NCBI RefSeq assembly: GCF_000698145.1 | Contig: NZ_BAXB01000009.1 | Location: forward strand, 51,808 to 83,807 | Direction of reading: 5' to 3' | From: Geomicrobium sp. JCM 19039 | GTDB taxonomy: Bacteria > Bacillota > Bacilli > Bacillales > Marinococcaceae | DNA length: 32,000 nucleotides | Shown: positions 4,785 to 30,925 of the stretch, in pieces | How the letters are laid out: every line of letters begins with the position of its first letter | How positions within the stretch are numbered: position 1 is the first letter of the stretch | Position numbers and translations under genes: made by a program | Notes under the pieces: model-generated | Told to the model about the DNA's origin: nothing | The model's database searches: none | The model's input: only the letters and a program-made list of their open reading frames with translations

Positions 4785-4861
4785 GTCCCAGTAGCTCAGC
4801 TGGATAGAGCAACAGCCTTCTAAGCTGTGGGTCGGGAGTTCGAATCTCTCCTGGGACGCCA
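4785..4861 (+). tRNA. tRNA-Arg (anticodon UCU), CCA encoded
   Basis: Hand-folded cloverleaf: acceptor GTCCCAG/CTGGGAC, D arm GCTC..GAGC, anticodon stem ACAGC/GCTGT with loop CTTCTAA, T arm GGGAG-TTCGAAT-CTCTC, discriminator G, then CCA. Confidence 0.9.
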
Positions 4862-4884
4862 TTTTCATTTACTTAACCACGTTT

Positions 4885-4906
4885 TTGACGCAAGATTGAC
4901 GCAAGA
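4885..4906 (+). repeat. Perfect tandem duplication TTGACGCAAGA x2 between the tRNA and the integrase 3' end
   Basis: Positions 4885-4895 and 4896-4906 are identical. Confidence 0.8.
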
Positions 4907-4913
4907 TTTTATT

Positions 4914-5775
4914 TTACCCCTCTTTTTTGGAAAAGAATTGCTCGAAAAGTTGGGCTGCCTCACGATCAACTTCAACAATTGAATGACCATATATATCCAT
5001 CGTCGTTCCGATCTTTGAATGACGCGCTCGAGAGCTGATGGATTTCATTGGGAGATTTTGAGAAATTAAAAACGTAATGGATATATGACGTAAATCATGA
5101 AACCGCACCTTCGGGAGTTGGTTTTTTTTAATGAATCGAATCCACCACTGGCTGATTGAATCTGGTCGAATGGGACGGCCATGATCATTGCAAAATAGAA
5201 ATACATTATCTGGATACTCCCACTTATCCCTCATGAGCATCTTCCACTTCTTTTTATCAAGAAGTAGTTTCTCGACCATCACCATAAGAGTCTCCGGTAT
5301 GGCTGCTACCCCCTCTAAATGATTCTTGGTAGGTATGATTTCTACCCCGCCTCCTGACAACTCACCTAGAGATTTATCAATTCGAATAGCACATTCGTCG
5401 ATTAATATACTGTTGTCGTCCAATGCCGCAATTTCTGCTTCCCTTGCTGATGTTATAAAAGCAATCCAAAAGAGAACTTGCTTATCTAATGGCTCTGTTT
5501 TTATCGCATCAATTAATGCCCAAATTTGCTCTTTGTTGTAGTTAATCTGAGCCTTGCTTGATCGTTTTGATGGCAACTTGATTTGCTATGTCCTCTTAAT
5601 TTAACTTGTAGGTATGGGCACATTCGAGCAAGCAGTTATAAGCTATGTACACAAGGTGGATGGATGACGGTGATAGAGCGCACGGTTTCTTATCTAAGCG
5701 CGCACTGTCTTTTTGTAAGTCAGCGATGTAGTTTACAAGGTGTCTCGTTTTGATGTCCTTGATATTTTTTGTGAC
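4914..5775 (-). pseudogene. Tyrosine recombinase / phage integrase, decayed (N-terminus missing, internal stop plus frameshift)
   Basis: The C-terminal catalytic domain is intact in one frame (4914-5576): TSAREAEIAAL (Arg), HDLRH (H-x-x-R), DIYGH (Tyr). The core-binding segment KDIKTRHLVNYIADLQKDSARLDKKPCALSPSSIHLVYIAYNCLLECAHTYKLN* lies in another frame (5599-5775) and ends in TAA. Nothing integrase-like is seen upstream of 5776. Confidence 0.8.
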
Positions 5776-6109
5776 TCAATCAAGGGAACAAAACAATCTT
5801 GGGGCCTTACACTGGATGAAAAACAACCGTGCTCCTCTTAGCGAAACAGCCACTCATTTTGGACGTAACCGTTCATTCACGATTGCGAATTGGAGGGGAA
5901 TCGTGGAGCGTGAGGGTGTTGTGGGCCTAGATCCAAAACCGAAAAACCCCCTTTCCATGTCGTATCGCTCAAGGGCAAAGAGAAAACTTTCTCCTTCACG
6001 TGAAGAACAATTGGAGCGGGGGAATAAACGTCTTCGATTGCAAAAACCGTGTATCGGACAGCGTCAAAGATTAAAAACCAGAGTAACACGAATCGCCTCT
6101 CCTTTTTGA
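5776..6109 (+). mobile_element. IS3-family OrfA (HTH) remnant, no OrfB; abuts or truncates the integrase 5' end
   Basis: LGALHWMKNNRAPLSETATHFGRNRSFTIANWRGIVEREGVVGLDPKPK...REEQLERGNKRLR resembles the IS3 OrfA pattern (HTH, then W..Y..EG..GL, then a leucine-zipper EE.L...N..L). No transposase catalytic ORF follows. Confidence 0.55.
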
Positions 6110-6176
6110 TAGGGGGTTTTCCTTTTAGAAAGGAGGGAACTATATTTTAAAAACGTTATAATTTGAGGGGTAATTT

Positions 6177-6385
6177 ATGAGTAGATTAGGACTAAGAAAC
6201 TTTGTTATTTTTATTTTATTAGGTGTTTTTTCATGACTGTCTTAAACATTATCTTGAATATTAGTCAAAATGAATCCATTAATATTCAATCAATAATGCC
6301 ATTTACTCTAATAGGATTAGGAATTGGATTTGCGTTAGCACTGCTTAGGTTTATTATTAAAGGTGATTTATGGGAGAAGAACTAA
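6177..6385 (+). CDS. Small 2-TM membrane peptide, split at a T6 run (20-aa and 50-aa pieces)
   Basis: The ATG at 6177 follows a gagggg SD and reads MSRLGLRNFVIFILLGVFS*. The overlapping ATG at 6233 reads MTVLNIILNISQNESINIQSIMPFTLIGLGIGFALALLRFIIKGDLWEKN*. No homologue recognised. Confidence 0.3.
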
Positions 6386-6540
6386 AAGGTATGGCGGAAT
6401 GACTATATTTCGACTTATTCCTGCCACATATACAGATCAATACGAGCCCCTTCTTCTTTGCGGAACGGGAGTTATTTTCTTTGATAAATAAGAACGAATG
6501 TTCTATATTAGAGTGAGATGAAAATATGGAGGCGGAGAGT

Positions 6541-7110
6541 ATGAGACCTAAATTAACAAAAACCCTTAATGTAGACGAGTTCAGTGACTTCTATTGGTTA
6601 AAAGAAGAATTACAATCTTTTTGTAGGAATAACGGAATTAGTGCATCAGGTTCAAAAATTGAGCTCTCTGAAAGGATTGAAACGTTTCTTGATACAGGGG
6701 AGATTAAAAAGGCACTTAGAAAAGCAAAATCCATAAGCAAAAAGGGTACTCAAAAAACGTTAAGTTTAAATACGGTCATTACAGTTGATCATCGATGTAG
6801 TCAAGATGTTCGTGCTTTTTTCAAGTCAGTTATTCCGAATTTTCATTTTTCTACGTATATACAAGACTTCTTTAAAAACAATGTGGGTAGTACATACCAC
6901 GAGGTTGTAAACGCATGGCATAAAGAGCAGGAGAGAATGAAAAACCCCTCCTACAAAAAGAAAATTGCTCCTCAGTTTGAGTACAATCAATTTACAAGAG
7001 ACTTCTTTGCAGATAAGAATAATGAAGGGAAGAATCGCGAGGATGCTATAGAGGCTTGGAATGCTATAAAAATACTACCAGGAAGTAATAAATACAAACC
7101 AACCCAATGA
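6541..7110 (+). CDS. SAP-domain-containing hypothetical protein
   Basis: The N-terminal LKEELQSFCRNNGISASGSKIELSERIETFL fits the SAP helix-extended-loop-helix motif; the remainder is a basic, uncharacterised domain. The ATG at 6541 follows GGAGG. Confidence 0.6.
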   Translation: MRPKLTKTLNVDEFSDFYWLKEELQSFCRNNGISASGSKIELSERIETFLDTGEIKKALRKAKSISKKGTQKTLSLNTVITVDHRCSQDVRAFFKSVIPNFHFSTYIQDFFKNNVGSTYHEVVNAWHKEQERMKNPSYKKKIAPQFEYNQFTRDFFADKNNEGKNREDAIEAWNAIKILPGSNKYKPTQ

Positions 7111-7148
7111 TCTATACATATCTATATATGAGAATCATTCTTATTAAG

Positions 7149-7184
7149 CCACAGCGAGGTTGGTCGTTGTGGTTTTCGGTTTTG
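7149..7184 (+). terminator. Terminator after the SAP-domain gene
   Basis: ccacagcg / cgttgtgg (one G-U pair), followed by ttttcggtttt. Confidence 0.6.
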
Positions 7185-7359
7185 CATTTTTTATGAACAA
7201 AGATATTGCAGGTGCTCGAGCCATGCTTTACCAAGTTTCTACTACTCGTTTTTAGATTTTCCATATGTATACGTTGCCTCTCTAAGTGGTGAATTAGTGT
7301 CGCCCCCCAAAAAAGTGATAGCTAAAACTAACGTTTGGGGTGTTTTTATTTTTAAAGCC

Positions 7360-7389
7360 CAAAAACCACGGTCTGCTAAGAGACCGTGG
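7360..7389 (-). terminator. Terminator of the membrane-protein gene
   Basis: ccacggtct / agaccgtgg with a 6-nt loop. The plus-strand A5 gives a U-tract on the minus strand. Confidence 0.75.
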
Positions 7390-7398
7390 AGTAATCCA

Positions 7399-7953
7399 CT
7401 AAATAATGAAGAGGGTACCGGTGATTAGCATCGATATACCTGTAACTGCACAAACGAAACTCGCTCCCCGTTCACTCATGAGTTGTCCAGCAGGCTTGTC
7501 TTTGTCCATTGCATAAAGTAGCGTTAGTGCTATCGCTATAATGATTGGCATGGCGATATATCCAATGTTTTGGTACAACCATGCATACGGGACAAAATGA
7601 ATCGTTACAGCTGTCGAGAATATTATAGGTATTGCCGTAAAGTTGCCTTTAATACTAAATAAAATTAATATAGGTAGCACCAACATTTGGGACAGTGACA
7701 GCATAATCGTTAATTGATTAATTAATTCTCCCCCTGGTTGATTGGTAAGCATTCCGAGACTAGCTGACACACCAAGGGCGATAGGTAAAGCAACCATACC
7801 TTGAAATAAGGTAGCGAGTGACGCTGTATATAAACTTACTTTTCTCCATAGTACTGCGCACACTACCCAAGTTACTCCGTATGCTCCTAAAAATGGAGCC
7901 CCACTATAGGTATGATTTGCAAGGTCAATTAAAGTACTCCTTAGCTCATCCAT
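7399..7953 (-). CDS. Polytopic membrane protein of unknown function (about 5-6 TM)
   Basis: 184-aa ORF that is almost entirely hydrophobic helices, with its own terminator. No motif recognised. Confidence 0.6.
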   Translation of the reverse strand: MDELRSTLIDLANHTYSGAPFLGAYGVTWVVCAVLWRKVSLYTASLATLFQGMVALPIALGVSASLGMLTNQPGGELINQLTIMLSLSQMLVLPILILFSIKGNFTAIPIIFSTAVTIHFVPYAWLYQNIGYIAMPIIIAIALTLLYAMDKDKPAGQLMSERGASFVCAVTGISMLITGTLFII

Positions 7954-8322
7954 GTAAAAATTATAGCATGTCGTCGAAATAAAATCTATAATTTGGTTAA
8001 ATTTTCTGAATATATCAGGTGCAATAATTAACAGAGAGGTCGGATATGAAAGAAGATTGGGTGCTGGTAGAGGTACGGGAATGACTATTTAAGATTGAAA
8101 CAAAGCAGGAAAATATCCTTCAGTTCTAAGAGGTCACAGCTGAAGAAGCATTGAGGGTCGTCAAGCGATATGTAAAGGCATATAAAATAGACACAAAAAA
8201 GCTCGGAAGATCGTAGTCTTTGAATTAAAACAGGTGTCGGGATAGCAGGAATTTTGGTTACAATGCTACTTTTTCGATGCCAATTTTAATCGCTGATTAC
8301 ACACCATAAGGAAGAAAGTTGC

Positions 8323-8630
8323 ATGATTAAGACATTACAGGGGTCGGCATTAGAGTTTTTGCTTAGCGTACTAAGTGTATTTCTGGCTGCACTAGTCGCT
8401 TATTTAACGACAAAAATCAAAAGGTATTTATATCTCGCGGCAGACCGTGCCAAACTTGGCATCATTGGCGCAATCACCATTGGAGCTGTGGAGCGTATAG
8501 AGGAGCAATTTTTCTGTAAATCCCGCGCTTTACATTTAAAGAGGCAACACAATCTGCATTGAATATTTTAAACCACTACGATATCGCGATTTCCGAAGAT
8601 CTCATCCGTACGTAGATTCGAGATAAATAA
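8323..8630 (+). pseudogene. LL-H-family phage holin remnant (frameshift near 8515-8525 and an in-frame TAG)
   Basis: N-terminal TM segment EFLLSVLSVFLAALVAYLTTKIKRYL...AVERIEEQFF. A second frame then reads FKEATQSALNILNHYDIAISEDLIRT*IRDK*, which matches the C-terminal pattern of LL-H holins as I recall it. Confidence 0.45.
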
Positions 8631-9015
8631 GACCGTATATAGAAGTGAAATGAACAAGTGGTGTAACTATGGTCCACAGTACATTTGTTGCAATTCCTTG
8701 GCCAGCAAATAATAGGCCGGGCACTGACAAAAGCGAGGCGAGGTGATAGTTTATGCTACTTTCAGCACGTTACAATGCGATCCTTCAGATCCATTTCACT
8801 ACGAGCCCCAACTATTGAATTTAGGGTATCAAATAAAGATTCGATGGATATACATAGCAAATAAATTCTGTAAAATTTAGTGCTTATGATAAAGTGAGTA
8901 TATCCATGATTTGTTCGTTTTCTGGGCTTTTATTTCTGTACCCCATAGCTGGGGTCTTATTTATGTAATAAGGAGGCACATGAGTGCATCCCCATTTATT
9001 TCCTTTTAGTATTTA

Positions 9016-9930
9016 TTAAAGAATTTTTCTGAACTTAGAGGACGCACCTCGCAGATTATCTGTGGTTTTGTTGATATTTTCAAACTCTGTAATCGCTTGT
9101 GAAATATGTTCTAAAGTTAGATAAAATTGATCTTTAGATAAATTTGTGGAATTTATTACTCTAGAAACTTCTTTTTTATTGGAGTACACAAGCTCTTCTA
9201 CATCTTGAATTGATCTTTTAGAATTATTCGCTAGTGTACGGATTTCATCCGCAATTACTGCAAACCCCTGGCCTTCATTTCCTGCTCTTGCAGCTTCAAT
9301 TGCTGCATTGAGCGCTAGGATGTCGGTCCTTATAGAAATTTCGCTTATCGTATTCACTATTCCCTCAATTTCATTAGAACTTTTCTGCAGGTTGTTGAGT
9401 ATTTCGCTATTCTTGTTCGATTGTTCGATTAACTCGCCAGTCAGTTCTATAATTTCTGAGGCTTTATCATGTCCTCTCTGAGCAATAGATAACACCGTAT
9501 TAGCCTCATTCACAATATTGGTTGTAATATCATTCACTGCATTTTCTCTGTAGGTTATGTCGGTTGCTATCTTTATTATTGATGTAACCACGCCAATCTC
9601 ATCTTTCACAGGTATATACGTTGCCTCTAATATAATTATTTTCCCATCTTTTTTGACACGTTTAATTTTGTCTTGAAATCGTTCTCCAGAACGAAGTCTA
9701 GTCCAAAATTCTTCATAGCTATCACTGAGTGTAAATTCTTTTTGACAAAGCTGCTCATGATGATTGTTTATTAATTCTTCAGGCGTATAACCTATGGTTT
9801 TGGAGAATATTGAATTGATCCAAGTGATCGTTCCTTCAGGTTGAAACTGAATCATAGCTAAAGAATTTTCCATTGCGGTTAACAAGTGTGCTTGTTCATG
9901 ACTTTGCATAGTGGCTAATTTTATTTGCAT
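9016..9930 (-). CDS. Soluble PAS-domain methyl-accepting chemotaxis (signalling-domain) protein
   Basis: 304 aa. The N-terminal PAS domain reads [31 protein letters not shown]...[14 protein letters not shown]. The MCP hairpin core reads [34 protein letters not shown]. No TM or HAMP segment. aagggag SD. Confidence 0.85.
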
Positions 9931-10023
9931 TCGTTACTCCCTTTTATAAAATAAATGAACAACAAAAATCTTACGGTAATAAATACCCATTCGGAGAAGT
10001 TTGCAAACAAATTATTCGTAAAT

Positions 10024-10049
10024 AAAAAACACGCCCTCGACAGGACGTG
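10024..10049 (-). terminator. Minus-strand terminator-like hairpin
   Basis: cacgtcc/ggacgtg-type stem with one mismatch. The plus-strand A6 gives a U-tract on the minus strand. Confidence 0.45.
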
Positions 10050-10118
10050 CCAAAAAAAGGAATTGGAGTGGACGTTACTAGGTTGGTCTATGCTTGTCCT
10101 TTATTCAGTAATGAACGA

Positions 10119-10144
10119 CAAAAACACGAGCAAATTCCCGTGTT
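10119..10144 (-). terminator. Minus-strand terminator-like hairpin
   Basis: aacacg / cgtgtt, followed on the minus strand by ttttt. Confidence 0.45.
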
Positions 10145-10203
10145 AAGTCGCCTCATATCGCAATGATATTAACGGCAATGATTGATCACTTCAAAAAATA
10201 GCC

Positions 10204-10263
10204 CTAACGCCAGTACGTGAACGAAATCAACTGATTACACTCCATACACTCATTTTTAATCAT
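10204..10263 (-). CDS. 19-aa CxxC mini-ORF (possible truncated zinc-ribbon or CXXC-20-CXXC-like gene)
   Basis: GAAGGAG, 5 nt spacer, ATG, then MIKNECMECNQLISFTYWR*. A shifted continuation reads GLFFEVINHC. Two terminator hairpins lie downstream. Confidence 0.25.
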   Translation of the reverse strand: MIKNECMECNQLISFTYWR

Positions 10264-10604
10264 CCAAACTCCTTCAAGTGCTACTTATTGATTTCAGATT
10301 TGGTTTTTTTGTGATTAAGGTTGTGCTCGAGACACCCTACACGATGCTGCGGGAATATCATCGGCAGTAAATACTAGCACATATTTGTACGAGGTGTTAG
10401 TTTGTTATCTCCTAAGGTGCACCCTCTTAATAATAAGAATGTGCGTTCTCATTACGTGCAATTGAGTACTTTTATACAAATTGAGCAACTCTAGTTCAAC
10501 TATGTCTTCTATTCAGTACTTTTGATTGGAACGAAAGGCGGTGACGCCTGCGGAAGAAGGACCGAAACTATGCCTGGCAAGTCATAAGACCGAAGAGCCT
10601 AGGC

Positions 10605-10790
10605 GGTTCATCGGTGGCAAATGTTTCGCCACTGATGTCGCCCTTGTGCTCCGGAGTATAAAGAAAACACGGTGGACATCTTTTGGCCACCGATGTTGCC
10701 CTTATAGGCTGGACTACAAGCATCCGCCTGTAGTGGGAAGCAACAACCAATAGCGCAAATTAGAAAACTAAGGTTCATCCTATATAATCC
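10605..10790 (-). repeat. Partial copy, on the minus strand, of the repeat element seen at 22332-23620 (terminus + header + 2 hairpin modules)
   Basis: The reverse complement of 10718-10790 aligns with 22332-22408: GAT(C)TATATAGGrTGAwC ... ATTTGCG ... CTACAGGCG. Modules at 10659-10717 and 10605-10658 match the 58-nt unit. Confidence 0.8.
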
Positions 10791-10983
10791 ATAAATCAGT
10801 AAGAAATTCAACAGAATTTTGTTTGTTCAATTTATATGCACTTTTTCTATACGATGTAAAAAGAGGAACATTTCAGTTTGCCCAGTACCTTACAACATCG
10901 TAAGCTGACGTAAGATCAATCAATTCAGCACAGTTCATCTAGGATGTAAAATGTGTGATAAAGGTATAGGTTAAGGAGGCAGT

Positions 10984-11325
10984 ATGATGAGAAAAGCAGT
11001 GATTGGCATTAGTGTAGCAGTGATTCTAGGAATTGCTGCATTTATTGGGATGTATTACTCGTTGAGTGATATGACTAGAGCGAACATCAATCCGTTTATT
11101 CAAGAAGAATATTGGTATGTTCAAGTTGATGAAGATGGCATAGTTGCTGAAGATGAGCAAGGAACTGTCTATTATGAGCTACCTGCAATGAATGAAAATG
11201 GAGACGAAAAGGATATTGAGTTTACAGCACTCAGCGAATTAAGAGAAGGTGCGTTTATTCAATTAACGATGAAAGAAGGCTTTGTGATGACGTATGAAGA
11301 GGTAGGGGAAGAGGACGTTCCTTAA
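10984..11325 (+). CDS. YxeA-family (DUF1093) small exported protein
   Basis: N-terminal TM anchor, then NPF..EEYWYVQV...YYELPAMNENGDEKDIEF...L..GAFIQL, the pattern typical of YxeA. GGAGG SD; the second ATG at 10987 has better spacing. Confidence 0.65.
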   Translation: MMRKAVIGISVAVILGIAAFIGMYYSLSDMTRANINPFIQEEYWYVQVDEDGIVAEDEQGTVYYELPAMNENGDEKDIEFTALSELREGAFIQLTMKEGFVMTYEEVGEEDVP

Positions 11326-11401
11326 GCGAGTAGTTAAACGTGAAGTATGGATGTATTGCACCATAAAGGTTCTCTCAAACATGTTTTAGGGGAGGATCTT
11401 G

Positions 11402-11875
11402 ATGAGTGAGATTTTAAAAGGCAAAGGGACGAATGGCCAACTAGAGTTGCACGAACATAAATTGGTCATTAAGCGAAAAGGACTAACGAATAAGATGTTA
11501 CATGGGCTCAAAGGGGATAAAGAAATATCCATTAGAGAGATTACCTGGATTCAATATAAAAAGCCAGGACTCGTTGCCGGCTATATTCAGTTCTCGTTTA
11601 GAGGGGGAACTGAGGCACAAGGGGGTGTGTGGCAAGCGGTGAGTGATGAGAAACCGATTACGTTTAACCCCGGTCAAAACAAGAATTTCCTAAAAATAAA
11701 AGAAGAGATTGAAAAGAGGATCAATGATCTTTATGCCACCCCAACCGTCACTCAGCCTACGAACCAGAACTTGAATGATTATGATGAGATTGAAAGGCTC
11801 GCCTCATTGATGGAAAAAGGCTACATTACAGATGAAGAGTTTCAGGTAAAAAAGAAACAAATCTTAGGCCTTTAA
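11402..11875 (+). CDS. DUF4429 (PH-like) / SHOCT-domain protein
   Basis: The C-terminal DEIERLASLMEKGYITDEEFQVKKKQILGL is a clear SHOCT motif. The N-terminal L.LHEHKLVIKRKG......I.IREITWIQYKKPGLVAGYIQF resembles DUF4429. GGGGAGG SD. Confidence 0.65.
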   Translation: MSEILKGKGTNGQLELHEHKLVIKRKGLTNKMLHGLKGDKEISIREITWIQYKKPGLVAGYIQFSFRGGTEAQGGVWQAVSDEKPITFNPGQNKNFLKIKEEIEKRINDLYATPTVTQPTNQNLNDYDEIERLASLMEKGYITDEEFQVKKKQILGL

Positions 11876-11882
11876 CAATACG

Positions 11883-11920
11883 AATGAAATGAATCCACCA
11901 TATGGTGGATTCATTTCATT
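11883..11920. terminator. Perfect 38-nt palindrome between convergent genes (bidirectional terminator candidate)
   Basis: aatgaaatgaatccaccata | tatggtggattcatttcatt. The 3' arm overlaps the stop codon of the minus-strand lipoprotein gene. Confidence 0.6.
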
Positions 11921-12653
11921 AAAGGCTTTGTGTGTCTTCAATAAAGTCTTCAAGGTCACGAAGCTCTCTGAGGTCCACAAGATCGTATTCTTCTGCAATC
12001 AAGATGAGTTGTTCGTAAGCGTTAGCAAGATGCTCGTTACCGGCTACAACTTGATCTACGAATGCTTCCTCTACCTCTTGAGCATTGTCGTTGTGGATCT
12101 CATCGAAATTGCCGTCTAATGACTCGACTGCTTCGGTATGAAGCTCCATTGCGAGTAAAAATTCATCAGCATAATACGTCATTTCTGGTGTGCTAAATTC
12201 AGCTCGTTCCAGGTTGCGAATTTGGTATGGCACATTTTCCATGTAGCGGTTGTAGTGAACGTCGACTGTTGTTCTTGCCTCCATGGCAGTGAAAACGGCG
12301 CTTAAGTAGTACGGGTGTTCACGCATGTTTTGCGGATTGTCGGGATCGACAATTTGGGACTCAAGTAATGTAATCATATCTTCCTCTAAGTCATCTTCTG
12401 ATGAGGTGACTTCTATTGCTTCAGGCGAGTCCGTTTGCTCTTCTTCTTCGGGTTCTACATCCTCTTCTTCCGTTGCGGGTTCTACCGCGACGGGTTCATC
12501 TTCAGTCGTTTCTTGGTTCTCTTGTTCGTCTACCCCTGTATTTTCACTTTCTTCTTCCTCAATCGTGCTAGATAGGATTCCGCACGCAGAACTAAGCATG
12601 AGAATGGAGAATAATCCAACAAATTTCAACGTATGATGCATCTTTATTTTCAT
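11919..12653 (-). CDS. Acidic lipoprotein of unknown function
   Basis: MKIKMHHTLKFVGLFSILMLSSAC (lipobox LSSAC), then an ~80-aa D/E-rich linker and a ~150-aa globular C-terminus. The ATG at 12653 lies 7 nt after GGAGGG; the longer track ORF start has no SD. Confidence 0.7.
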   Translation of the reverse strand: MKIKMHHTLKFVGLFSILMLSSACGILSSTIEEEESENTGVDEQENQETTEDEPVAVEPATEEEDVEPEEEEQTDSPEAIEVTSSEDDLEEDMITLLESQIVDPDNPQNMREHPYYLSAVFTAMEARTTVDVHYNRYMENVPYQIRNLERAEFSTPEMTYYADEFLLAMELHTEAVESLDGNFDEIHNDNAQEVEEAFVDQVVAGNEHLANAYEQLILIAEEYDLVDLRELRDLEDFIEDTQSL

Positions 12654-12950
12654 CCAGTCACCCTCCTTTTTTCTTAACGATACGCAAAAGAAAAACACCG
12701 TCAAATCGAGAAAGAGGGGGAAGGCCATGCATAATATAGTTATAAAGCATTAGCAAATAAATGGAAAAAGGATAAGTACTCTGTTTGGCAATCGTTGTTT
12801 CACTCCATAGCACTGGGTCGTAGGACATGAAACATTCACTAATAAATATATTTAGGTATCACGGCTTAATTTTTCGTATGTGTGCCTCACTTCATTGATA
12901 GCGGATATGGTACAATGCCAACTAGATCTGGAATAAATGAGGTGCGAGAC

Positions 12951-21780: not shown

Positions 21781-22206
21781 ATGGAGCCCTTTACTATTCG
21801 AGATTTCAAACAAGTCGCCAATCACAATCATCCGCCTCCTGCGTGTGATACGCATATGAATGTTACAGTACAACGTGCAGAACATGGGAAATCGACGGGC
21901 ATTTGGTCGCCAGATGAGCGGTTTGTAAACGGCAATGGGGTTGTTATGGGCGGTTTGTTGTCTGGCGCTACCGATATTCTGATGGCGTATGCACTTGCAT
22001 CAACACTTGAGGACAACCAAAGCTTTGCAAGTGTAGACCTTCATACAACATTTCACCGTCCTATTTTCCCAGGTAATGTAACTGTAAATGCTGAAGTCGA
22101 TAAACTGGGCAAGAAGATGGCTTACGTGACTGCGGAGTTATGGCAAAACGATAAAAAAGCGGCATCGACTGTGTCGTCTGTCTTCATCCAAACGAATCAA
22201 CAGTGA
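21781..22206 (+). CDS. paaI: PaaI-family hotdog-fold thioesterase
   Basis: 141 aa with NGNGVVMGGLLSGATDILMAYALAS and DLHTTFHRPIFPG. AAGGAG SD. Directly downstream of paaX. Confidence 0.75.
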   Translation: MEPFTIRDFKQVANHNHPPPACDTHMNVTVQRAEHGKSTGIWSPDERFVNGNGVVMGGLLSGATDILMAYALASTLEDNQSFASVDLHTTFHRPIFPGNVTVNAEVDKLGKKMAYVTAELWQNDKKAASTVSSVFIQTNQQ

Positions 22207-22408
22207 GGGCCATGAATGTACGAATCCCTCGCTGTTTTTCTGTGTGGGCAGGCAAGTATGATAAGTAAAGTGTTGTGGTGAATCTATAATGGGTATATAG
22301 CGGCTTTTATCAATTAAGACGACGTCCAAAACGATCTATATAGGGTGATCTTTAAATCTTCCTGATTTGCGTTGTTGGTTTTTGCTTTCCGCTACAGGCG
22401 AATTCTTG

Positions 22409-22636
22409 CACTCCAGAGCACAAGTGCAACATCGGCGGCCAAAAGACGCCCGCCGTGTTTTCTATGCACTCCAGAGCACAAGTGCAACATCGGCGGCTAA
22501 AAGACGCCCGCCGTGTTTTCTATGTACTCCAGAGCGCAACGGACATCGGTGGCTAAAAAACAGCCACCGTTTTTTCTTTATACTCCAGAGCAGAAGGCAG
22601 ACGCGGTTCACGTTTCTGCCTACTGGCTACGGTGTG
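22409..22636 (+). repeat. Tandem array of four 56-58-nt hairpin modules
   Basis: Units start at 22409, 22467, 22525 and 22581 with yACTCCAGAGC. Units 1 and 2 differ at one base (22440 vs 22498). Each unit carries a hairpin followed by a T-rich tract. Confidence 0.9.
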
Positions 22637-22924
22637 TGGAAAGATGTCCAAATGCCCCATATATTCATTTATGTGACACTTGGGAAAGAAAAATCATCAT
22701 TTTAAACGTGAATACGCCCATAAACGGAGTCAACGGTCACTAATCGTGATATATGTGACCGTTGGGTGCCGAAAGTGCCCGGTTTGAGGGCTGGATTGTC
22801 ACATAAGTAAGAGGTCATCACATGCTTTCGCCAGGTGGTGACCCTAGGTCACGACTTTTTAGCCTTCGGCATACGTTTCCGTGTTGACCGCAACCCTTAC
22901 AGTGACGAACAACGATCGGCAACG

Positions 22925-23000
22925 AAGGTAAGGGCAACATCGGCGGCCAAAAGACGCCCGCCGTGTTTTCTATAGTAGTCCAGACGATAAGGGCAACATC
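22925..23000 (+). repeat. Second, partial array of the same module inside the element
   Basis: 22934-22973 is identical over 40 nt to 22426-22465. It is followed by a truncated unit, TAGTCCAGACGATAAGGGCAACATC. Confidence 0.85.
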
Positions 23001-23646
23001 CCCTTTCACTGCGCTTCGGTGCTGCACCTAAAGACGTCGGATTTTGAACGTGAAACGAAAGAATGGGTTCCAAAGAGTATCGATTGGAATCAGATTCACT
23101 CATATGTGATCGGTTTGCCTCGTTCTGATTCCAATTGATCGACATCTCGTTCCAAACTTCCGTTTATGGAATCAGATTCAAAAGTTTTATAGAAAATAAC
23201 CAACAATCTAGCCCGAAAGTGATGTTCATTAGGATGTATGCCCTGTCCCAACCCCGAGTTGAAAAACCCAAAATTCTTATCGGCGCGAGTCGCGCTGAAT
23301 CGAGACCGATTTCGGTTCGGCCCCACTAGGCCGACAGATCGTATGGTGTTAGGTTTAATTTAGACTGAGCGTAAGTTTTACGAAATGAGTACTAAAATCG
23401 CTAAAAAGAGCAAACTTGATTGCAGAAAGTGAAAACTAGCGCGCACAATGCGAATGACGCTCCCTTTCCCTACTCGGGATAACACCATCGAAGTGATTCC
23501 ACTACGCAAAAGGGGTATGAAGACATTTTTGATCATAACGGTCAAATTGCATGAAATGACGATGTTATCTCTATATTGTGGCGTCTAACGAATTTCTTTC
23601 GTTCATCCTATATAGATCGCAGCCCTCTCCCTAAGTGTTATAAATC

Positions 23647-23686
23647 GAAAAAGCGAACCCTAGCATCGGATGGGGTTCGCTTTTTC
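23647..23686. terminator. Bidirectional terminator (ends the minus-strand E2 gene)
   Basis: aaaaa-gcgaaccc ... gggttcgc-ttttt. Confidence 0.8.
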
Positions 23687-23700
23687 TCATCGTCTCTCCC

Positions 23701-24883
23701 TCATTTGAGTGAAGTAAGGAGGCGATATGGCTTTTCAAGTAAGCTTTTCATCCGGTTCGTAAACATCACCGCTGTGTAGCCATCGGCAACACGGTGATCA
23801 AAAGAGAGTGACAGGTTAAGCATCGACCTTATGACGATTGTTTTGTTACGCACAACCGGTGTATCTTCGATCTGATGAAGAGCGAGAATGGCGACTTCGG
23901 GGTGGTTAATAATCGGTGTTGCATACACCCCTCCGATCGGACCGACATTGCTAATCGTAAAAGTGCCTCCTCGCAAGTCGCTCATTTCACACTCGTTGTT
24001 TTGCGCTTTTTCGGTGAGTTGTTTCATCTCTTCATGCAGATGTGGAATGCTCTTTTGTTGTGTATCCTTTATAACAGGAACAATGAGACCCTCATCGGTA
24101 TGTGTCGCGATTCCGCAGTTTACCGTCGGCTCTAGCGTAATTTCCTCGCGTTCTTCATCTAACTTTGAATTAAAGACAGGGAACTCTAATAGGGCAATTG
24201 ATACGGCTTTTAGAAAAAATGCCGTGAGAGAAAGATGAACTCCGTCTGCTTTTAACTCATCTTTTACTTCAATTAACGCGCTTACATCAATTCGGTCAAA
24301 GTGAGTAACGTGTGGAATCGTGTAAGCGGAAGTTGTCATTTTTTTTGCAATTTGTTTTCTGCGTCCTTTGAAGGGCAGGCTTTCTTTATTCGTGTGCGTA
24401 TCCAATAGTGTGCGATTGGTTGTTGGATTGTTGCTACTTTGACGTGTACGTTCAATATCTTCATTCGTAATTCGTTTGTTCTTACCCGTTCCTTCGATCG
24501 TTTCAATCTCGATGCCATATGAACGAGCAAGTTTACGCGTGTACGGTGCTGCTTTTACATTCCTCATCCGAAAAAGACGTGAAGGTGTAGGGAGGAGGAG
24601 CCCTTCGCAGCATCTTGTGATGGTGAGGGAGAAGGTGTTGTCTTTTTGGAGTGATCCTCAATCACAATAATGGTGGTACCTGTTTTCACGACGTCTCCCT
24701 CTGCAACAGGATGGTAACGACTTTTCCGGCAACCGGTGAAGGCAGGTCAGCGGTCACTTTATCAGTCTGGACACTCAAAACCGGCTGGTCAGCTGAGACC
24801 GAGTCCCCGACTTTTACAAAGACGGTGTCCACAGTACCTTCAGTAATGCCCTCACCAATGTCGGTTAATTTCATTTCAAACAT
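23701..24883 (-). CDS. 2-oxo acid dehydrogenase E2 (dihydrolipoamide acyltransferase); two frameshifts as assembled (near 24706 and 24585-24600)
   Basis: The lipoyl domain reads MFEMKLTDIGEGITEGTV...VLSVQTDKVTADLPSPVAGKVVTIL. The next frame reads VAEGDVVKTGTTIIVIED followed by a Pro/Ser linker. The third frame holds the E3/E1-binding motif AAPYTRKLARSYGIEIETIEGTGKNKRIT and the catalytic LSLSFDHRVADG. Confidence 0.85.
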
Positions 24884-24891
24884 ACACACCC

Positions 24892-25908
24892 CTACCTTTC
24901 ATTCATGACATGTTCAATGGCTGCACCAATCCGCTTGGCACTTGGAATATACGCTTGTTCAATAGAAAAAAATGGTACGTGAACGTCAAACCCCGTCACT
25001 CGTTGAATCGGTGCGCGTAAAGAGTACAAAGCTTCATCATTAATTATCGCAATAATTTCCGCACCAAAGCCGCTCGTCTGGTGACCTTCATGGACGACAA
25101 CGACCCGACCTGTTTTTTCTACGGAAGCAATAATCGTTGGAACGTCTAGTGGGTCAAGCGTACGTAAGTCAATGACTTCGGATTGGATCCCCTTTTCTTC
25201 AAATGCGTCACGTGCCGCTTCCAACGCTGGACGTACCATGTTGCCCCAAGCAAGAACGGTTACATCCTCACCCGTTTGACGAACACTCGCTTCTCCAATG
25301 TTTACGATGTATTTCTCAACAGGAACGTCTTCACGATACGCACGGTACGTTTCATCGGCTCCATAAAAAGTACCGGATCAGGGTCAAGAATACTTGCGAT
25401 TAACAGCCCCTTAGCATCATAAGGTTGATGGAACGACGACTTTTAAACCCGGAATGTGGGTGAAAAGGGACTCCATACTGTCTGAGTGCAGTTCAGGAGC
25501 ATGAATTCCTGCACCATAAGGTGCGCGAATAACGAGAGGTACAGTGAAGCGGCTTAACGTTCGTGTACGCATACGGACGGCGTGGGACACGATCTGTTGA
25601 AAGGCAGGGTAGATAAAACCTTGGAATTGCATTTCAGCGACAGGTAAAAAACCGTTCATGGCAAGACCGATACTCGTGCCGATGATTCCTGATTCAGCAA
25701 GGGGGGTATCCACAACCCGTTGTTCCCCAAATTCTAATTGCAGTCCATCGGTGGCTCGGAACACACCCCCATTTGTTCCGATGTCTTCCCCAAGTAATAT
25801 GACGCGCTCATCTTCACGTAACATTACTTCTAATCCAGAAGTGATCGCACCAACAAGGGTCATTTCTTTCGTCTTTTTCTCCTCCAAAGCACTCGGTTGA
25901 CTCATCAT
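24892..25908 (-). CDS. 2-oxo acid dehydrogenase E1 beta subunit; two frameshifts (near 25423 and 25347) that together restore the original frame
   Basis: The N-terminal piece ends ...HIPGLKVVVPST. The middle frame reads PYDAKGLLIASILDPDPVLFMEPMKR. The C-terminal piece reads YRAYREDVPVEKYIVNIGEASVRQTGEDVTVLAWGNMVRPALEAA.... The order and text parallel Bacillus PdhB. Confidence 0.85.
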
Positions 25909-28761: not shown

Positions 28762-28861
28762 TTTTTAAAAGTTGTTGAATAACTCTGTTTTTCTAAGCAT
28801 AGGTGTGTTACTATATCAATCAATAACAAATTCGAAATTCGTACAATTTAATATTTAAAAC

Positions 28862-29138
28862 GTTGAAGAGGATCAGTAGTTATTCATACTTTCTTTACAG
28901 AGAGCCGTTCGTGCTGAGAGACGGTGAGAAAGCGAATAATGAACTCCCCTCGGAGTGTGATAGTGAATGTATATCAAGTAGCTATCGCCGGTCGGATTAT
29001 CATCTGACCGTTACTAACAGGCGCTTTTAGCGCAATGAGCCGGTTGCTATTTAGAACCGGGAAATTAGGGTGGTACCGCGGAATAACCTTTTCGCCCCTT
29101 TGGTTAAATGTCCAATGGGGAGAAAAGGTTATTTTTTT
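28862..29138 (+). promoter_or_regulatory. T-box leader (tRNA-sensing riboswitch) controlling ilvB-ilvN-ilvC; probable Leu (CUC) specifier
   Basis: Stem I elements are present: AGTA, CAGAGAG, GCTGAGAG, GGTGAGAA. GAA-CTC at 28941-28946 sits in the specifier-loop position. The T-box sequence AAATTAGGGTGGTACCGCG is at 29062-29080. The terminator is at 29082-29138. Confidence 0.85.
29082..29138 (+). terminator. T-box terminator hairpin
   Basis: aataaccttttcgcccc / ggggagaaaaggttatt (17 bp, 1 mismatch), followed by T7. Confidence 0.85.
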
Positions 29139-29196
29139 ATCGTAGACAGATGGATGCTTTGGAGGAAGAGAAATTGTATGAAGGAGGAAGATGGAG

Positions 29197-30925
29197 ATGG
29201 GCACGAATCTCGAAGTGCAAGATGATGAACGGAGAACTGACCGAAACAACGAAGAGATGAATGGCAGCCAAATGGTTCTCGAGTCACTGGCAGAAGAAGG
29301 TGTGGAAATCATTTTTGGTTATCCTGGCGGAGCCATCCTGCCGACGTATGACGAGATTTACAAAAAAGGGATCCGTCACATTTTAGCAAGACACGAGCAA
29401 GGCGCAATACACGCTGCTGAAGGTTATGCAAGAGTGTCAGGGAAACCAGGTGTTTGCATCGTTACGTCGGGTCCAGGGGCGACAAATGTTGTGACTGGCA
29501 TTGCCGATGCGATGATTGACTCATTGCCGCTTGTCGTCATTACCGGTCAAGTTGCAACGAATGTCATCGGTACGGATGCTTTTCAAGAGGCGGATATGAT
29601 CGGTATTACGATGCCAATCACGAAGCATAATTTTCAAATCCGAAATGTCGCAGATATCCCTGCGGTGATGAAAGAAGCTTTTCACATTGCGACAACTGGC
29701 CGTCCAGGTCCTGTACTCATTGATTTGCCCAAAGATGTATCCATCGATCGAGGAAATTTTACGTATCCAAAAAGGGTGCAACTACCCGGGTATCAACCAA
29801 CCGTTCAACCTAATCGACTGCAAATCAAGAAATTAAAAGCGGCGATTGAGAAAGCCAAACGTCCTGTCATACTTGCTGGTGCTGGCGTTCTCCATGCAGG
29901 CGGTGCAAAGGAACTTGAACGTTTTGCAAAAACACAAAACATTCCGGTATCATCAACGTTGCTCGGTCTGGGAGGATTTCCTGCTCGTGATGATTTGAGC
30001 CTTGGAATGGCAGGAATGCACGGCTTGTACGCATCTAACATGGCGTTGCATGAATCAGATTTACTCATCAACATTGGGGCACGCTTTGATGATCGTCTTA
30101 CGGGTAAACTGGAACACTTTGCTCCATACGCGACGGTTGCACATGTCGATGTAGACCCTGTTGAAATCGGAAAGAACATTACGACTGACATTCCGATTGT
30201 AGGGGATGCAAAACGAGCGTTACAGCTACTGAATGAAACAACTGATCCACTAGGTCGATTCGATGAATGGCACGAGCGGTTAGGTGAATACAAAAGCAAC
30301 TATCCACTCTGGTATGAAACGGATCACGAAACACTCAAGCCGCAAGCCCTCATGGAAATGGTTTACGAGGAAACAAATGGCGACGCGATCGTTACGACAG
30401 ACGTCGGTCAACATCAAATGTGGGCAGCCCAGTATTACAAATTCAATGAACCCAATCACTGGGTCACATCTGGGGGCTGGGAACGATGGGCTTTGGTTTT
30501 CCAGCAGCCATCGGCGCACAGTTTGCTGAACCCGACAAAACGGTTGTAGCCGTCGTAGGAGATGCAGGTTTTCAGATGACCCTCCAGGAGATGTCGATTC
30601 TTCAAGAACTGCATCTTCCTGTAAAGATTGTGATTGTAAACAATGCCTCGCTTGGATGGTAAGGCAATGGCAAGAATTGTTCCACGGAGAACGGTATTCT
30701 CATTCACTGTTTCCGATTCAACCCGATTTCACGAAACTATCGGAAGCGTATAACATTCCAGGATATCGTATCGACGACCCAAGTGAAGCAAGAACGGTTC
30801 TAAAAAAAGGGCTAGCGATTGACGGACCTGTATTGTTCGATTTCAGAGTGACAGGTCAAGAAAATGTGTACCCGATGATTGCACCTGGTAAAGGTCATCA
30901 GGAAATGGAGGGAATTGCGCCGTGA
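29197..30925 (+). CDS. ilvB: Acetolactate synthase large subunit; two frameshifts as assembled (G5 run 30472-30476 and near 30655-30656)
   Basis: MGTNLEV... (the ATG at 29197 lies 9 nt after GGAGG, like B. subtilis MGTN), then [37 protein letters not shown]. After WVTSGG the text continues in a second frame as [35 protein letters not shown]...NNASLG, then in a third frame as MVRQWQELF...[17 protein letters not shown]. Confidence 0.9.

What the first reader, a model, noticed from the sequence alone, without database searches (positions are those of the whole stretch)
22409..22636. Tandem 56-58-nt modules whose hairpins are preserved by compensatory substitutions and followed by U-tracts
The units begin with yACTCCAGAGC at 22409, 22467, 22525 and 22581. 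The stems differ between copies but stay paired. They are CGGCGG...CCGCCG (units 1 and 2, and 22941-22966), CGGTGGCT...AGCCACCG (unit 3), GGCAGA...TCTGCC (unit 4), CGGTGG...CCACCG and CATCAGTGGC...GCCACCGATG (the minus-strand copies at 10605-10717). Each stem is followed by TGTTTTCT or TTTTTTCT, so each unit looks like a small intrinsic terminator. Covariation argues for selection on structure (RNA or ssDNA) rather than on sequence. The 58-nt period is not a multiple of 3, so the overlapping track ORFs are spurious.
Basis: seen in the sequence. Interest (0 to 1): 0.65.

Follow-up and report, generated by a model that had tools for sequence, protein, structure and literature searches.

The report
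Modular terminator-like intergenic repeat element
The tandem 58-base hairpin units after the paaI-like gene are real, but they are the variable-copy middle part of a small non-coding repeat element scattered around Geomicrobium genomes, an undescribed member of a familiar kind of bacterial repeat and not a terminator set built for that gene.

Summary
The array is real: period 58, three full units, with further copies at 22937-22971 and 10600-10716(-). Each full unit has a conserved 5' box (yACTCCAGAGCAyAAGkGCAACATC), a GC-rich hairpin with a bulged T, and TGTTTTCT. Two stem versions (CGGCGG/CCGCCG and CGGTGG/CCACCG) never mix. But only 2 of 12 pairs covary, so the support is suggestive, not proven. 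Unit 4 is a half-unit fused to another conserved segment, and its hairpin is not homologous.

The units are not paaI's terminators. The paaI-like gene has its own terminator 90 nt upstream. The units always follow an ~85-nt leader. Leader plus units recur in unrelated contexts:
- inverted at 10575-10786 in the window;
- in an IMG/VR contig (L094);
- on at least five other contigs of Geomicrobium sp. JCM 19039, seen through spurious ORFs;
- as a single-unit form in Pseudogracilibacillus.

Unit number differs between loci and strains (3, 1.5 and 1).

Best reading: an undescribed, low-copy, modular leader-(unit)n-tail repeat, built like pneumococcal BOX and P. gingivalis BrickBuilt, with SPRITE-like terminator units. 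Rfam, plasmid and phage searches found nothing. A sibling small-RNA family is not excluded.

The parts
22324..22408 (+). Leader ('head') of the element. It includes the terminal motif CGATCTATATAGGGTGATC.
   Evidence: Homology with the L094 copy starts at 22324. It aligns with the minus-strand copy 10717-10786, with L106, and more weakly with L001 and L078. The 14-mer TATATAGGRTGAWC matches 3 times exactly in the window (4 with up to 2 mismatches, against 0.66 expected).
22409..22466 (+). Unit A1: 5' box, hairpin CGGCGG/CCGCCG with bulged T, then TGTTTTCT.
   Evidence: -15.2 kcal/mol; 75 bits.
22467..22524 (+). Unit A2. It differs from A1 at one base, which makes the apical pair U.G.
   Evidence: (98% to A1).
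22525..22580 (+). Unit A3 (56 nt): perfect 8-bp stem CGGTGGCT/AGCCACCG, then TTTTTTCT.
   Evidence: (flagged as terminator-like).
22581..22607 (+). Half-unit A4: the 5' box through ...CGG, fused to segment X. The local hairpin GGCAGA...TCTGCC lies at 22595-22621.
   Evidence: L094 has the less diverged form TACTCCAGAGCACAAGGCGACATCGG|TTCACG. The same junction appears in the translated copies P0124/P0128, P0126 and P0001.
22608..22927 (+). Segment X: about 320 nt, non-coding, with GTGAC/GTCAC inverted repeats. It follows the units in the 'long form' of the element.
   Evidence: 82% identical to L094 11656-11975 in unrelated flanks. Absent from the JCM 19037 orthologous locus. Translations of other copies lie on 5 contigs of JCM 19039. 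Fold z-score -3.0. No Rfam or Pfam match.
22928..22974 (+). Partial unit B1. Its 5' box is truncated. Its hairpin and T-tract are 100% identical to A1 over 40 nt.
   Evidence: (22934-22973 = 22426-22465, 100%).
22975..23035 (+). Degenerate terminal unit B2 (GTAGTCCAGACGATAAGGGCAACATC...) and tail (...CTTCGGTGCTGCAC).
   Evidence: Matches 10692-10717(-) at 92% (I5). Aligns with the truncated second unit and tail of L106.
10575..10786 (-). Second, 'short form' copy: leader 10717-10786, unit C1 10659-10716 (CGGTGG/CCACCG, TGTTTTCT), degenerate terminal unit C2 10600-10658 (no T-tract), short tail.
   Evidence: 143-nt inverted match to 22359-22501 at 80% (I1).. An independent short-read contig of the same genome ends at about 10547, about 50 nt short of this copy (L110/L111).
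23468..23622 (-). 155-nt segment absent from JCM 19037. Its minus-strand start carries the same 19-nt motif CGATCTATATAGGATGAAC as the leaders.
   Evidence: indel; exact 14-mer; 19 of 19 match to the L094 leader start.
22199..22245 (+). The paaI-like gene's own intrinsic terminator: 11-bp stem AACAGUGAGGG/CCCUCGCUGUU, then UUUCUGUG. This is context, not part of the element.
   Evidence: -20.7 kcal/mol. The gene 21781-22206 is a 4HBT thioesterase.

Best explanation
The 56-58-nt units are the internal, copy-number-variable block of a small non-coding dispersed repeat element. The element has the plan leader (~85 nt), then n units, then either a degenerate terminal unit plus short tail ('short form') or a half-unit plus a ~320-nt segment X ('long form').

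Each unit has three parts: a conserved single-stranded box, a GC-rich hairpin with a bulged U near its base, and a U-tract. This is the anatomy of an intrinsic terminator of the kind this genome uses.

Shown here:
- the element occurs at several unrelated loci and in more than one genus;
- unit number differs between loci and strains;
- units are homogenised (the B1 hairpin is identical to A1's);
- the stem stays paired in both of its versions.

Inferred:
- the array grows and shrinks by slippage or unequal recombination between units;
- pairing is kept either by selection on a folded transcript (terminator or 3'-end stabiliser) or by intra-palindrome templated correction and gene conversion;
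- the element spreads or spread by an unidentified trans-acting recombinase or by recombination;
- when transcribed in the sense direction the units stop or attenuate read-through, as a by-product and not as a function dedicated to paaI.
For: Architecture and dispersal.
- Leader plus units occur at 22324-22580(+) and 10575-10786(-) in the window.
- L094 (IMG/VR contig of an isolate genome) carries leader + 1 unit + half-unit + X at 82-84% identity in unrelated flanks.
- Spurious-ORF translations of unit(s) + half-unit + X lie on five different contigs of Geomicrobium sp. JCM 19039. These are P0001, P0003, P0124/P0128, P0126 and P0127. P0128 also includes the leader end.
- A single-unit form of about 150 nt sits in different flanks in Pseudogracilibacillus sp. 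(L001) and in a metagenome contig (L078).

Variable number and rapid turnover.
- The window has 3 full units, the orthologous JCM 19037 locus has 1 full and 1 truncated, and L094 has 1.
- The flanks are 95% identical between the strains, but 22500-23622 is about 78% identical with large indels.
- Independent short-read contigs of the same genome stop inside (paaI locus) or about 50 nt short of (second locus) the repeats.

Not paaI's terminator.
- The gene has its own terminator at 22199-22245.
- The copy at 10575-10786 lies between divergent genes.
- L078 lies antisense between two co-oriented genes.

Hairpin maintenance: 87% of cells are paired, against 35-56% when the partners are slid. Pair 32-48 is UA in 5 copies and CG in 3, with none broken.

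No coding potential or known RNA family.
Against: - No terminal inverted repeats of 12 nt or more were found, and no clean target-site duplication. No transposase or RAYT gene was seen in about 100 kb of related loci. Mobility is therefore inferred only from dispersal.
- Copy density is low. No further copy was found by the covariance model in about 50 kb of additional Geomicrobium DNA.
- The uneven conservation between genera (box and U-tract nearly identical, leader about 55%, stem interior replaced) fits a functional RNA or protein-binding site better than a neutrally decaying selfish repeat.
- No expression data exist.
Confidence: 0.6

Rival explanations
1. A family of sibling small regulatory RNAs. 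Each locus would be an independent small-RNA gene: the leader is the 5' body, the conserved box (CACUCCAGAGCA..., loosely anti-Shine-Dalgarno-like) is the seed, and the hairpin plus U-tract is its terminator. Extra units would give read-through isoforms or repeated seeds.
For: - The box is 96% identical, and ACAUC...GUGUUUUCUUUA is conserved, between Geomicrobium and Pseudogracilibacillus, while the stem interior changes.
- Copy number is low.
- The copy at 10575-10786 lies with no co-oriented gene upstream, as a stand-alone unit would.
- The homology starts at a TATATA/TATAAA box.
Against: - No conserved -35 element. Candidate spacings are 17, 19 and none, and the sigma-70 scan flags nothing upstream of either leader.
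- Homology between the window and L094 begins only about 13 nt before TATATA.
- The leader has no conserved predicted structure.
- Units are too short (58 nt, no room for a promoter) to be separate genes.
- No Rfam match.
Confidence: 0.2
2. Dedicated tandem terminators of the paa operon. The units would be selected to ensure complete termination after paaI, between convergent operons.
For: - The units are co-oriented with paaI and lie between convergent genes.
- Their hairpin and U-tract anatomy resembles the gene's own terminator, AACA...UGUU UUUCU.
- The JCM 19037 locus also has them.
Against: - paaI already ends in a strong terminator 90 nt upstream.
- An ~85-nt leader always precedes the units.
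- The same leader plus units occur at loci with no upstream co-oriented gene, and in other genomes.
- Unit number is not conserved between strains.
Confidence: 0.08
3. Single-stranded-DNA hairpin sites for an HUH/Y1 or integrase-type recombinase (REP/RAYT-like, IS200/IS605-end-like or attC-like). The conserved box and the bulged T would be recognition features, and segment X would be a passenger inserted at a unit.
For: - The bulged T at the stem base is conserved in nearly all copies, including the other genus.
- The conserved box lies immediately 5' of the hairpin.
- X is joined to a unit exactly inside the 5' arm (...CATCGG|TTCACG) at several loci.
- The 155-nt indel 23468-23622 shares the leader's terminal 19 nt.
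Against: - No Y1 transposase or RAYT gene appears in any fetched locus (gene tables; Pfam).
- The only integrase (4914-5576) sits next to a tRNA gene and is not adjacent to a copy.
- All units are in direct orientation, unlike BIMEs and REPINs.
- The strongly conserved T-tract has no role in such systems.
- In L094, X does not sit inside a complete unit.
Confidence: 0.1

Closest known systems
BOX elements of Streptococcus pneumoniae (boxA-(boxB)n-boxC) (Croucher et al. 2011, PMC3049150)
   Same: Modular plan: a leader module, a variable number of tandem short internal modules (boxB is 45 nt; here 56-58 nt) and a terminal module. Non-coding and intergenic. Module number varies between loci and strains. 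Found in clusters with other repeats inserted into one another. Over-represented between convergent genes.
   Different: No sequence similarity. BOX has about 125 copies per genome and has TIRs and TSDs, with boxA pairing with boxC. Here no TIR or TSD was detected and copy number appears low. Here each internal module is itself a terminator-like hairpin with a U-tract.
[quoted passage not shown]
   Same: An interspersed repeat whose fold is a stem followed by a U-rich tract. It is thought to act, or to have been co-opted, as a terminator. Low copy number (30 per genome).
   Different: SPRITE is a single AT-rich unit with an 18-bp duplex and a long U-rich tract, found close to 3' ends of genes. 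The Geomicrobium unit has a 6-8-bp GC-rich stem with a basal extension and a bulged U, a short U-tract, a conserved 25-nt 5' box, tandem amplification and a leader.
BrickBuilt MITE with internal minisatellite, Porphyromonas gingivalis (Klein et al. 2015, PMC4596501)
   Same: Leader, tandem repeat block without spacers, then tail. About 19 copies per genome. Always intergenic. Repeat number varies.
   Different: The BrickBuilt repeat is 23 nt and the element has small inverted-repeat ends and promoter activity. Here the unit is 58 nt and terminator-like, and inverted ends were not found.
REP/BIME elements of enterobacteria and pseudomonads
   Same: Extragenic imperfect palindromes, clustered in mosaics with other motifs, often after genes. 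They can stabilise or terminate transcripts.
   Different: REPs occur in hundreds of copies, alternate in orientation within BIMEs and are tied to RAYT transposases. Here all units are direct, copies are few and no RAYT was seen.

Membership tests
Intrinsic (Rho-independent) terminator | GC-rich stem of about 5-12 bp with a short loop, immediately followed by a U-rich tract | tested here: met
   A1-A3, B1, C1, L106 M1 and L094 M1 have 6-8 GC-rich pairs plus an ACA/UGU basal extension and a 7-9-nt loop, then (U)UUUCU, at -15 to -18 kcal/mol. Only A3 passes the strict scan. A4 and C2 lack the U-tract.
Intrinsic (Rho-independent) terminator | Position at the 3' end of a co-oriented transcription unit that needs it | tested here: not met
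   paaI has its own terminator at 22199-22245. The copy at 10575-10786 and L078 have no co-oriented upstream gene.
Intrinsic (Rho-independent) terminator | Transcript 3' ends map to the U-tract | not testable with these tools
   No transcriptome data for Geomicrobium were available.
MITE-type modular repeat (BOX / BrickBuilt kind) | Short, non-coding, multiple copies in unrelated genomic contexts | tested here: met
   Two loci in the window, L094, at least 5 other contigs of JCM 19039, and L001/L078 in another genus. No Pfam or Rfam hits.
MITE-type modular repeat (BOX / BrickBuilt kind) | Leader, variable number of tandem internal modules, tail | tested here: met
   3, 1.5, 1, 2 (C1 plus degenerate C2) and 1 units follow a homologous leader at five loci.
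MITE-type modular repeat (BOX / BrickBuilt kind) | Terminal inverted repeats | tested here: not met
   No inverted repeat of 12 nt or more joins the element ends in five copies. Only a 9-10-nt AT-rich complementarity was seen, TATATAGGG (22337) with CCCCATATA (22656), and it lies inside X.
MITE-type modular repeat (BOX / BrickBuilt kind) | Target-site duplication or a clean empty site | tested here: inconclusive
   The only filled/empty comparison is the 155-nt indel 23468-23622. It is flanked by similar but non-identical CT-rich runs, CTCCCTTTCCCT and GCCCTCTCCCT. No empty site is available for the main element.
REP/BIME | Alternating orientation of palindromic units, very high copy number, associated RAYT gene | tested here: not met
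   All units are direct. No extra copy was found in about 50 kb of further Geomicrobium DNA. No Y1_Tnp domain appears in the gene tables. A whole-genome RAYT search could not be run.
CRISPR array | Identical repeats separated by unique spacers of about 26-40 nt | tested here: not met
   The units abut without unique spacers. The variable part is about 21 nt, is itself a near-identical hairpin in all units, and no cas genes lie nearby.
Type III toxin-antitoxin RNA repeats (ToxI-like) | Tandem RNA repeats directly upstream of a co-oriented toxin gene | tested here: not met
   No ORF with a Pfam hit lies between 22640 and 23700 on either strand. The next real gene is convergent (23701-24567, minus strand).
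Known RNA families (Rfam 15) | Covariance-model match | tested here: not met
   Nothing at the gathering score in the window except a T-box and a tRNA. At E<=10 in 22100-23800 only two chance microRNA hits appeared.
Stand-alone small-RNA gene | Conserved promoter upstream of the conserved transcript body | tested here: inconclusive
   A TATATA/TATAAA box sits at the start of the homology, but there is no conserved -35 and no hit in the sigma-70 scans. Other sigma factors are not covered.

The most novel reading that the evidence does not exclude
The conserved box plus bulged-U hairpin plus U-tract is the working part of a previously unrecognised family of sibling regulatory RNAs. Alternatively it is the recognition site of an unknown recombinase that also moves segment X. 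Either would be shared by halo-alkaliphilic Bacillales of different genera, with tandem amplification tuning the dose. That would explain why the box is 96% conserved across genera while the stem interior is free to change.
Probability: 0.2. Interest if true: 0.6.

Novelty: new member of a known kind. Interest (0 to 1): 0.32.

Why it matters
It adds a described-in-outline repeat family to a little-studied group, Geomicrobium and its relatives. It shows that terminator-like hairpin units can be amplified as a minisatellite inside a dispersed element in Bacillales. There are practical consequences. The array breaks short-read assemblies and spawns spurious 'hypothetical proteins' in at least six JCM 19039/19037 annotations. 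It marks a fast-evolving intergenic hotspot that could serve for strain typing. If the small-RNA or recombinase reading were right, it would be a new regulatory or mobile system, but the present evidence does not require that.

Tried and rejected
- Genome-collection scan with TCCAG-N-CAACATC-N-GTKTTTTCT. 75 of 76 loci were chance matches and only L001 was real.
- Metagenome scan: one true hit only (L078).
- Six-frame concatenated pseudo-protein search: 8000 candidates, none scored. Wasted.
- Methyl-accepting chemotaxis protein homologue search to reach other Geomicrobium loci. It gave L107/L108 (about 21 kb of new sequence), which hold no copy.
- Look-ups of P0001, P0003, P0124, P0126, P0127 and the 452-aa window protein (29191-30549): not on record.
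- Plasmid and phage BLAST: no match.
- Viral scans with the leader motif: five extra loci, all chance; no unit was found in them by the model.
- Terminal-inverted-repeat hunt: negative.
- Coding hypotheses. The reverse-strand peptide MLHLCSGVQ... is interrupted by a stop in copy C1 and lacks a usable ribosome-binding site. The 17-aa MPHIFIYVTLGKEKSSF in X has no convincing ribosome-binding site. Both rejected.
- The CRISPR, ToxI-like, attC-like and iteron readings were considered and rejected on anatomy.
- The idea that 22640-23700 is a decayed E3 (lipoamide dehydrogenase) gene: no Pfam signal, and the E2 gene has its own terminator at about 23645-23690.

Full report
**The observation**

Tandem Repeats Finder reports one array at 22403-22596 with period 58, 3.4 copies and 86% matches. 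The motif yACTCCAGAGC begins at 22409, 22467, 22525 and 22581. A pattern that describes the hairpin and its T-tract (ACATCGGYGGC-N10-CCRCCGTKTTTTCT) matches five times: 22429, 22487, 22543, 22937 and 10662 on the minus strand. None of 100 shuffles gave a match.

Folding gives the same shape for each full unit. There is a four-pair base ACA/UGU, a bulged U, six to eight GC-rich pairs and a loop of 7-9 nt, followed by (U)UUUCU, at -15 to -18 kcal/mol.

So the thing is real and at the stated coordinates. Two statements of the finding fail.
- Unit 4 (22581-) and the distal minus-strand copy (10600-10658) have no T-tract.
- The unit-4 hairpin GGCAGA/TCTGCC is not homologous to the others. Unit 4 is a half-unit (the 5' box through ...CGG) joined to a different conserved segment.

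**Covariation**

I aligned the eight Geomicrobium units (A1, A2, A3, B1, C1, C2, L106 M1, L094 M1) and counted a 12-pair stem.
- 87% of cells pair, against 35-56% when the 3' partners are slid by 1-3 columns.
- Four pairs never vary.
- Only two pairs change on both sides. The fourth pair is U-A in five copies and C-G in three, never broken. The apical pair runs C-G (5), U.G (1), U-A (1), G.U (1).
- Protein-level translations of further copies agree. P0124/P0128 read R-W...H-R, which is CGGTGG/CCACCG.
- One of 500 shuffles reaches the observed covariation score. The tool warns that related sequences do this without any structure.

The honest statement is two stem versions that never mix, plus one wobble series. 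This is suggestive of maintained pairing, is not statistically secure, and may reflect one or two events. Intra-palindrome templated correction or gene conversion could give the same picture without selection on RNA. The B1 hairpin is 100% identical to A1 over 40 nt although their 5' parts differ.

**The source genome**

Translating the spurious ORF across the array and searching the protein collection returned only Geomicrobium sp. JCM 19037 and JCM 19039 hypothetical proteins. A short-read contig from run DRR017903 is identical to the window and stops 27 nt into the first unit. These genomes are Ion Torrent drafts (PMC4064037). That probably explains the split E1-beta and E2 genes next door.

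**The units are not paaI's terminators**

The 4HBT/PaaI-like gene (21781-22206) ends inside its own 11-pair hairpin with UUUCUGUG at 22199-22245. The repeat starts about 90 nt further on, and not with a unit. It starts with an ~85-nt leader.

The same leader plus units is present, inverted, at 10575-10786 (143 nt, 80% identical). That copy lies between a divergently oriented DUF1093 gene and a chemotaxis-receptor gene, so nothing co-oriented lies upstream.

**Comparison with the orthologous locus of JCM 19037 (L106)**

- The flanks are 95% identical, but 22500-23622 is only about 78% identical with large indels.
- JCM 19037 has the leader, one full unit (CGGTGG/CCACCG) and a truncated unit fused to the tail.
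- It lacks the window's unit 3, the half-unit, a ~320-nt segment X (22608-22927) and unit B1.
- It also lacks a 155-nt piece (23468-23622). The minus-strand start of that piece carries the same 19-nt motif CGATCTATATAGGATGAAC as the leaders.

**Copies elsewhere**

- A scan of viral contigs with the conserved box found L094, an IMG/VR provirus call from an isolate genome. It carries leader + one unit + half-unit + X at 82-84% identity to window 22324-22927, in flanks unrelated to the window. This fixes the ends of a 'long form' at about 22324 and 22927.
- HMMER against protein representatives found more translated copies. Cluster look-ups place P0001, P0003, P0124/P0128, P0126 and P0127 on five different contigs of JCM 19039. 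All show unit(s) + half-unit + start of X, and P0128 also shows the end of the leader.
- In another genus, Pseudogracilibacillus sp. SO30301A (L001) and a metagenome contig (L078) carry a ~150-nt single-unit form whose two flanks differ between the two loci.
- A covariance model of the unit found no further copy in about 50 kb of additional Geomicrobium DNA. The family is therefore low-copy, not REP-like in abundance.
- Another segment of the same intergenic region (23291-23414; L106 10373-10510) has a 68%-identical copy beside the L094 element in the opposite relative orientation. The 1.4-kb paaI/E2 spacer is a mosaic of dispersed pieces.

**What it most likely is**

It is a modular, non-coding, dispersed repeat with the plan leader-(unit)n-tail, or leader-(unit)n-X. 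The units look like terminators.

The closest described architectures are:
- pneumococcal BOX, with boxA-(boxB)n-boxC;
- the SPRITE terminator-like repeat from the same genome (PMC3049150);
- the BrickBuilt leader-minisatellite-tail MITE of P. gingivalis (PMC4596501).

Pneumococcal repeats also cluster and insert into each other, and are enriched between convergent genes.

Membership in the MITE class is not established. No terminal inverted repeats were found, no clean target duplication and no transposase. REP/BIME, CRISPR, ToxI-like and Rfam memberships were tested and not met.

**What argues for something more interesting**

Between genera the 25-29-nt box is 96% identical and GTGTTTTCTTTA is identical. 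The leader is only about 55% conserved. The stem interior is replaced by a weak hairpin that keeps the ACA/UGU base and the bulged U.

That uneven pattern and the low copy number would suit a sibling small-RNA family, or a recombinase recognition site. I give these about 0.2 and 0.1. The points against are:
- no conserved promoter;
- no conserved leader structure;
- no recombinase gene in the fetched loci.

**Limits**

Several copies are known only through amino-acid translations. No expression data exist. The unit count in the window rests on an Ion Torrent/Newbler assembly.

**Verdict**

This is a new member of a known kind of element. Interest is modest.

Noticed in passing
window 4785-12400: A tRNA gene (4785-4858) is followed by a phage-type integrase gene (4914-5576, minus strand). 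Synteny with the JCM 19037 contig only starts at 12400, and the chemotaxis-receptor gene here is only 62% identical to its best JCM 19037 relative, which lies in a different context. This looks like a tRNA-linked genomic island, and it contains the second copy of the repeat.
   Followed up: partly
window 23468-23622 (minus strand): A 155-nt segment absent from JCM 19037 and flanked by similar CT-rich runs. It begins with the same 19 nt as the element leaders but has an unrelated body. It may be a second small element that shares an end motif.
   Followed up: partly
window 22637-22665 and L094 about 11925-11955: Inside segment X, a promoter-like TGGAAA-17 nt-TATATT is conserved between the window, L094 and the translated JCM 19039 copies. 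In the window a GTGACC/GGTCAC hairpin plus TTTTT lies about 190 nt downstream (22838-22862), but this hairpin is not conserved in L094.
   Followed up: partly
window 23291-23414; L106 10373-10510; L094 12339-12470: Another non-coding segment of the paaI/E2 spacer has a 68%-identical copy next to the L094 element, in the opposite relative orientation.
   Followed up: partly
window 23079-23094 / 23124-23139, also about 23167-23181: Inverted repeat ATCGATTGGAATCAGA / TCTGATTCCAATTGAT (94% complementary) with a third GGAATCAGATTCA copy. It is conserved in JCM 19037. Function unknown.
   Followed up: no
window 23701-25908: The 2-oxoacid dehydrogenase genes look broken. E1-beta is split into 163-aa and 115-aa ORFs, and the E2 ORF lacks its lipoyl domain. 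JCM 19037 has an intact E1-beta but a split E2. These are probably Ion Torrent homopolymer errors and not real pseudogenes.
   Followed up: partly
window 28854-29102: A T-box leader (124 bits) lies upstream of the 452-aa ORF 29191-30549.
   Followed up: no
window 11883-11920: A perfect 19-nt palindrome (AATGAAATGAATCCACCAT / ATGGTGGATTCATTTCATT) with no spacer, between the convergent ORFs 11399-11875 (+) and 11919-12728 (-).
   Followed up: no
L001 598-728 (minus strand); L078 1212-1337: In the Pseudogracilibacillus-type single-unit form the 12-mer CATAAGTGCAAC occurs twice, once in the leader and once in the unit box. In L078 the element abuts the start of a divergent ABC-F ATPase gene.
   Followed up: partly
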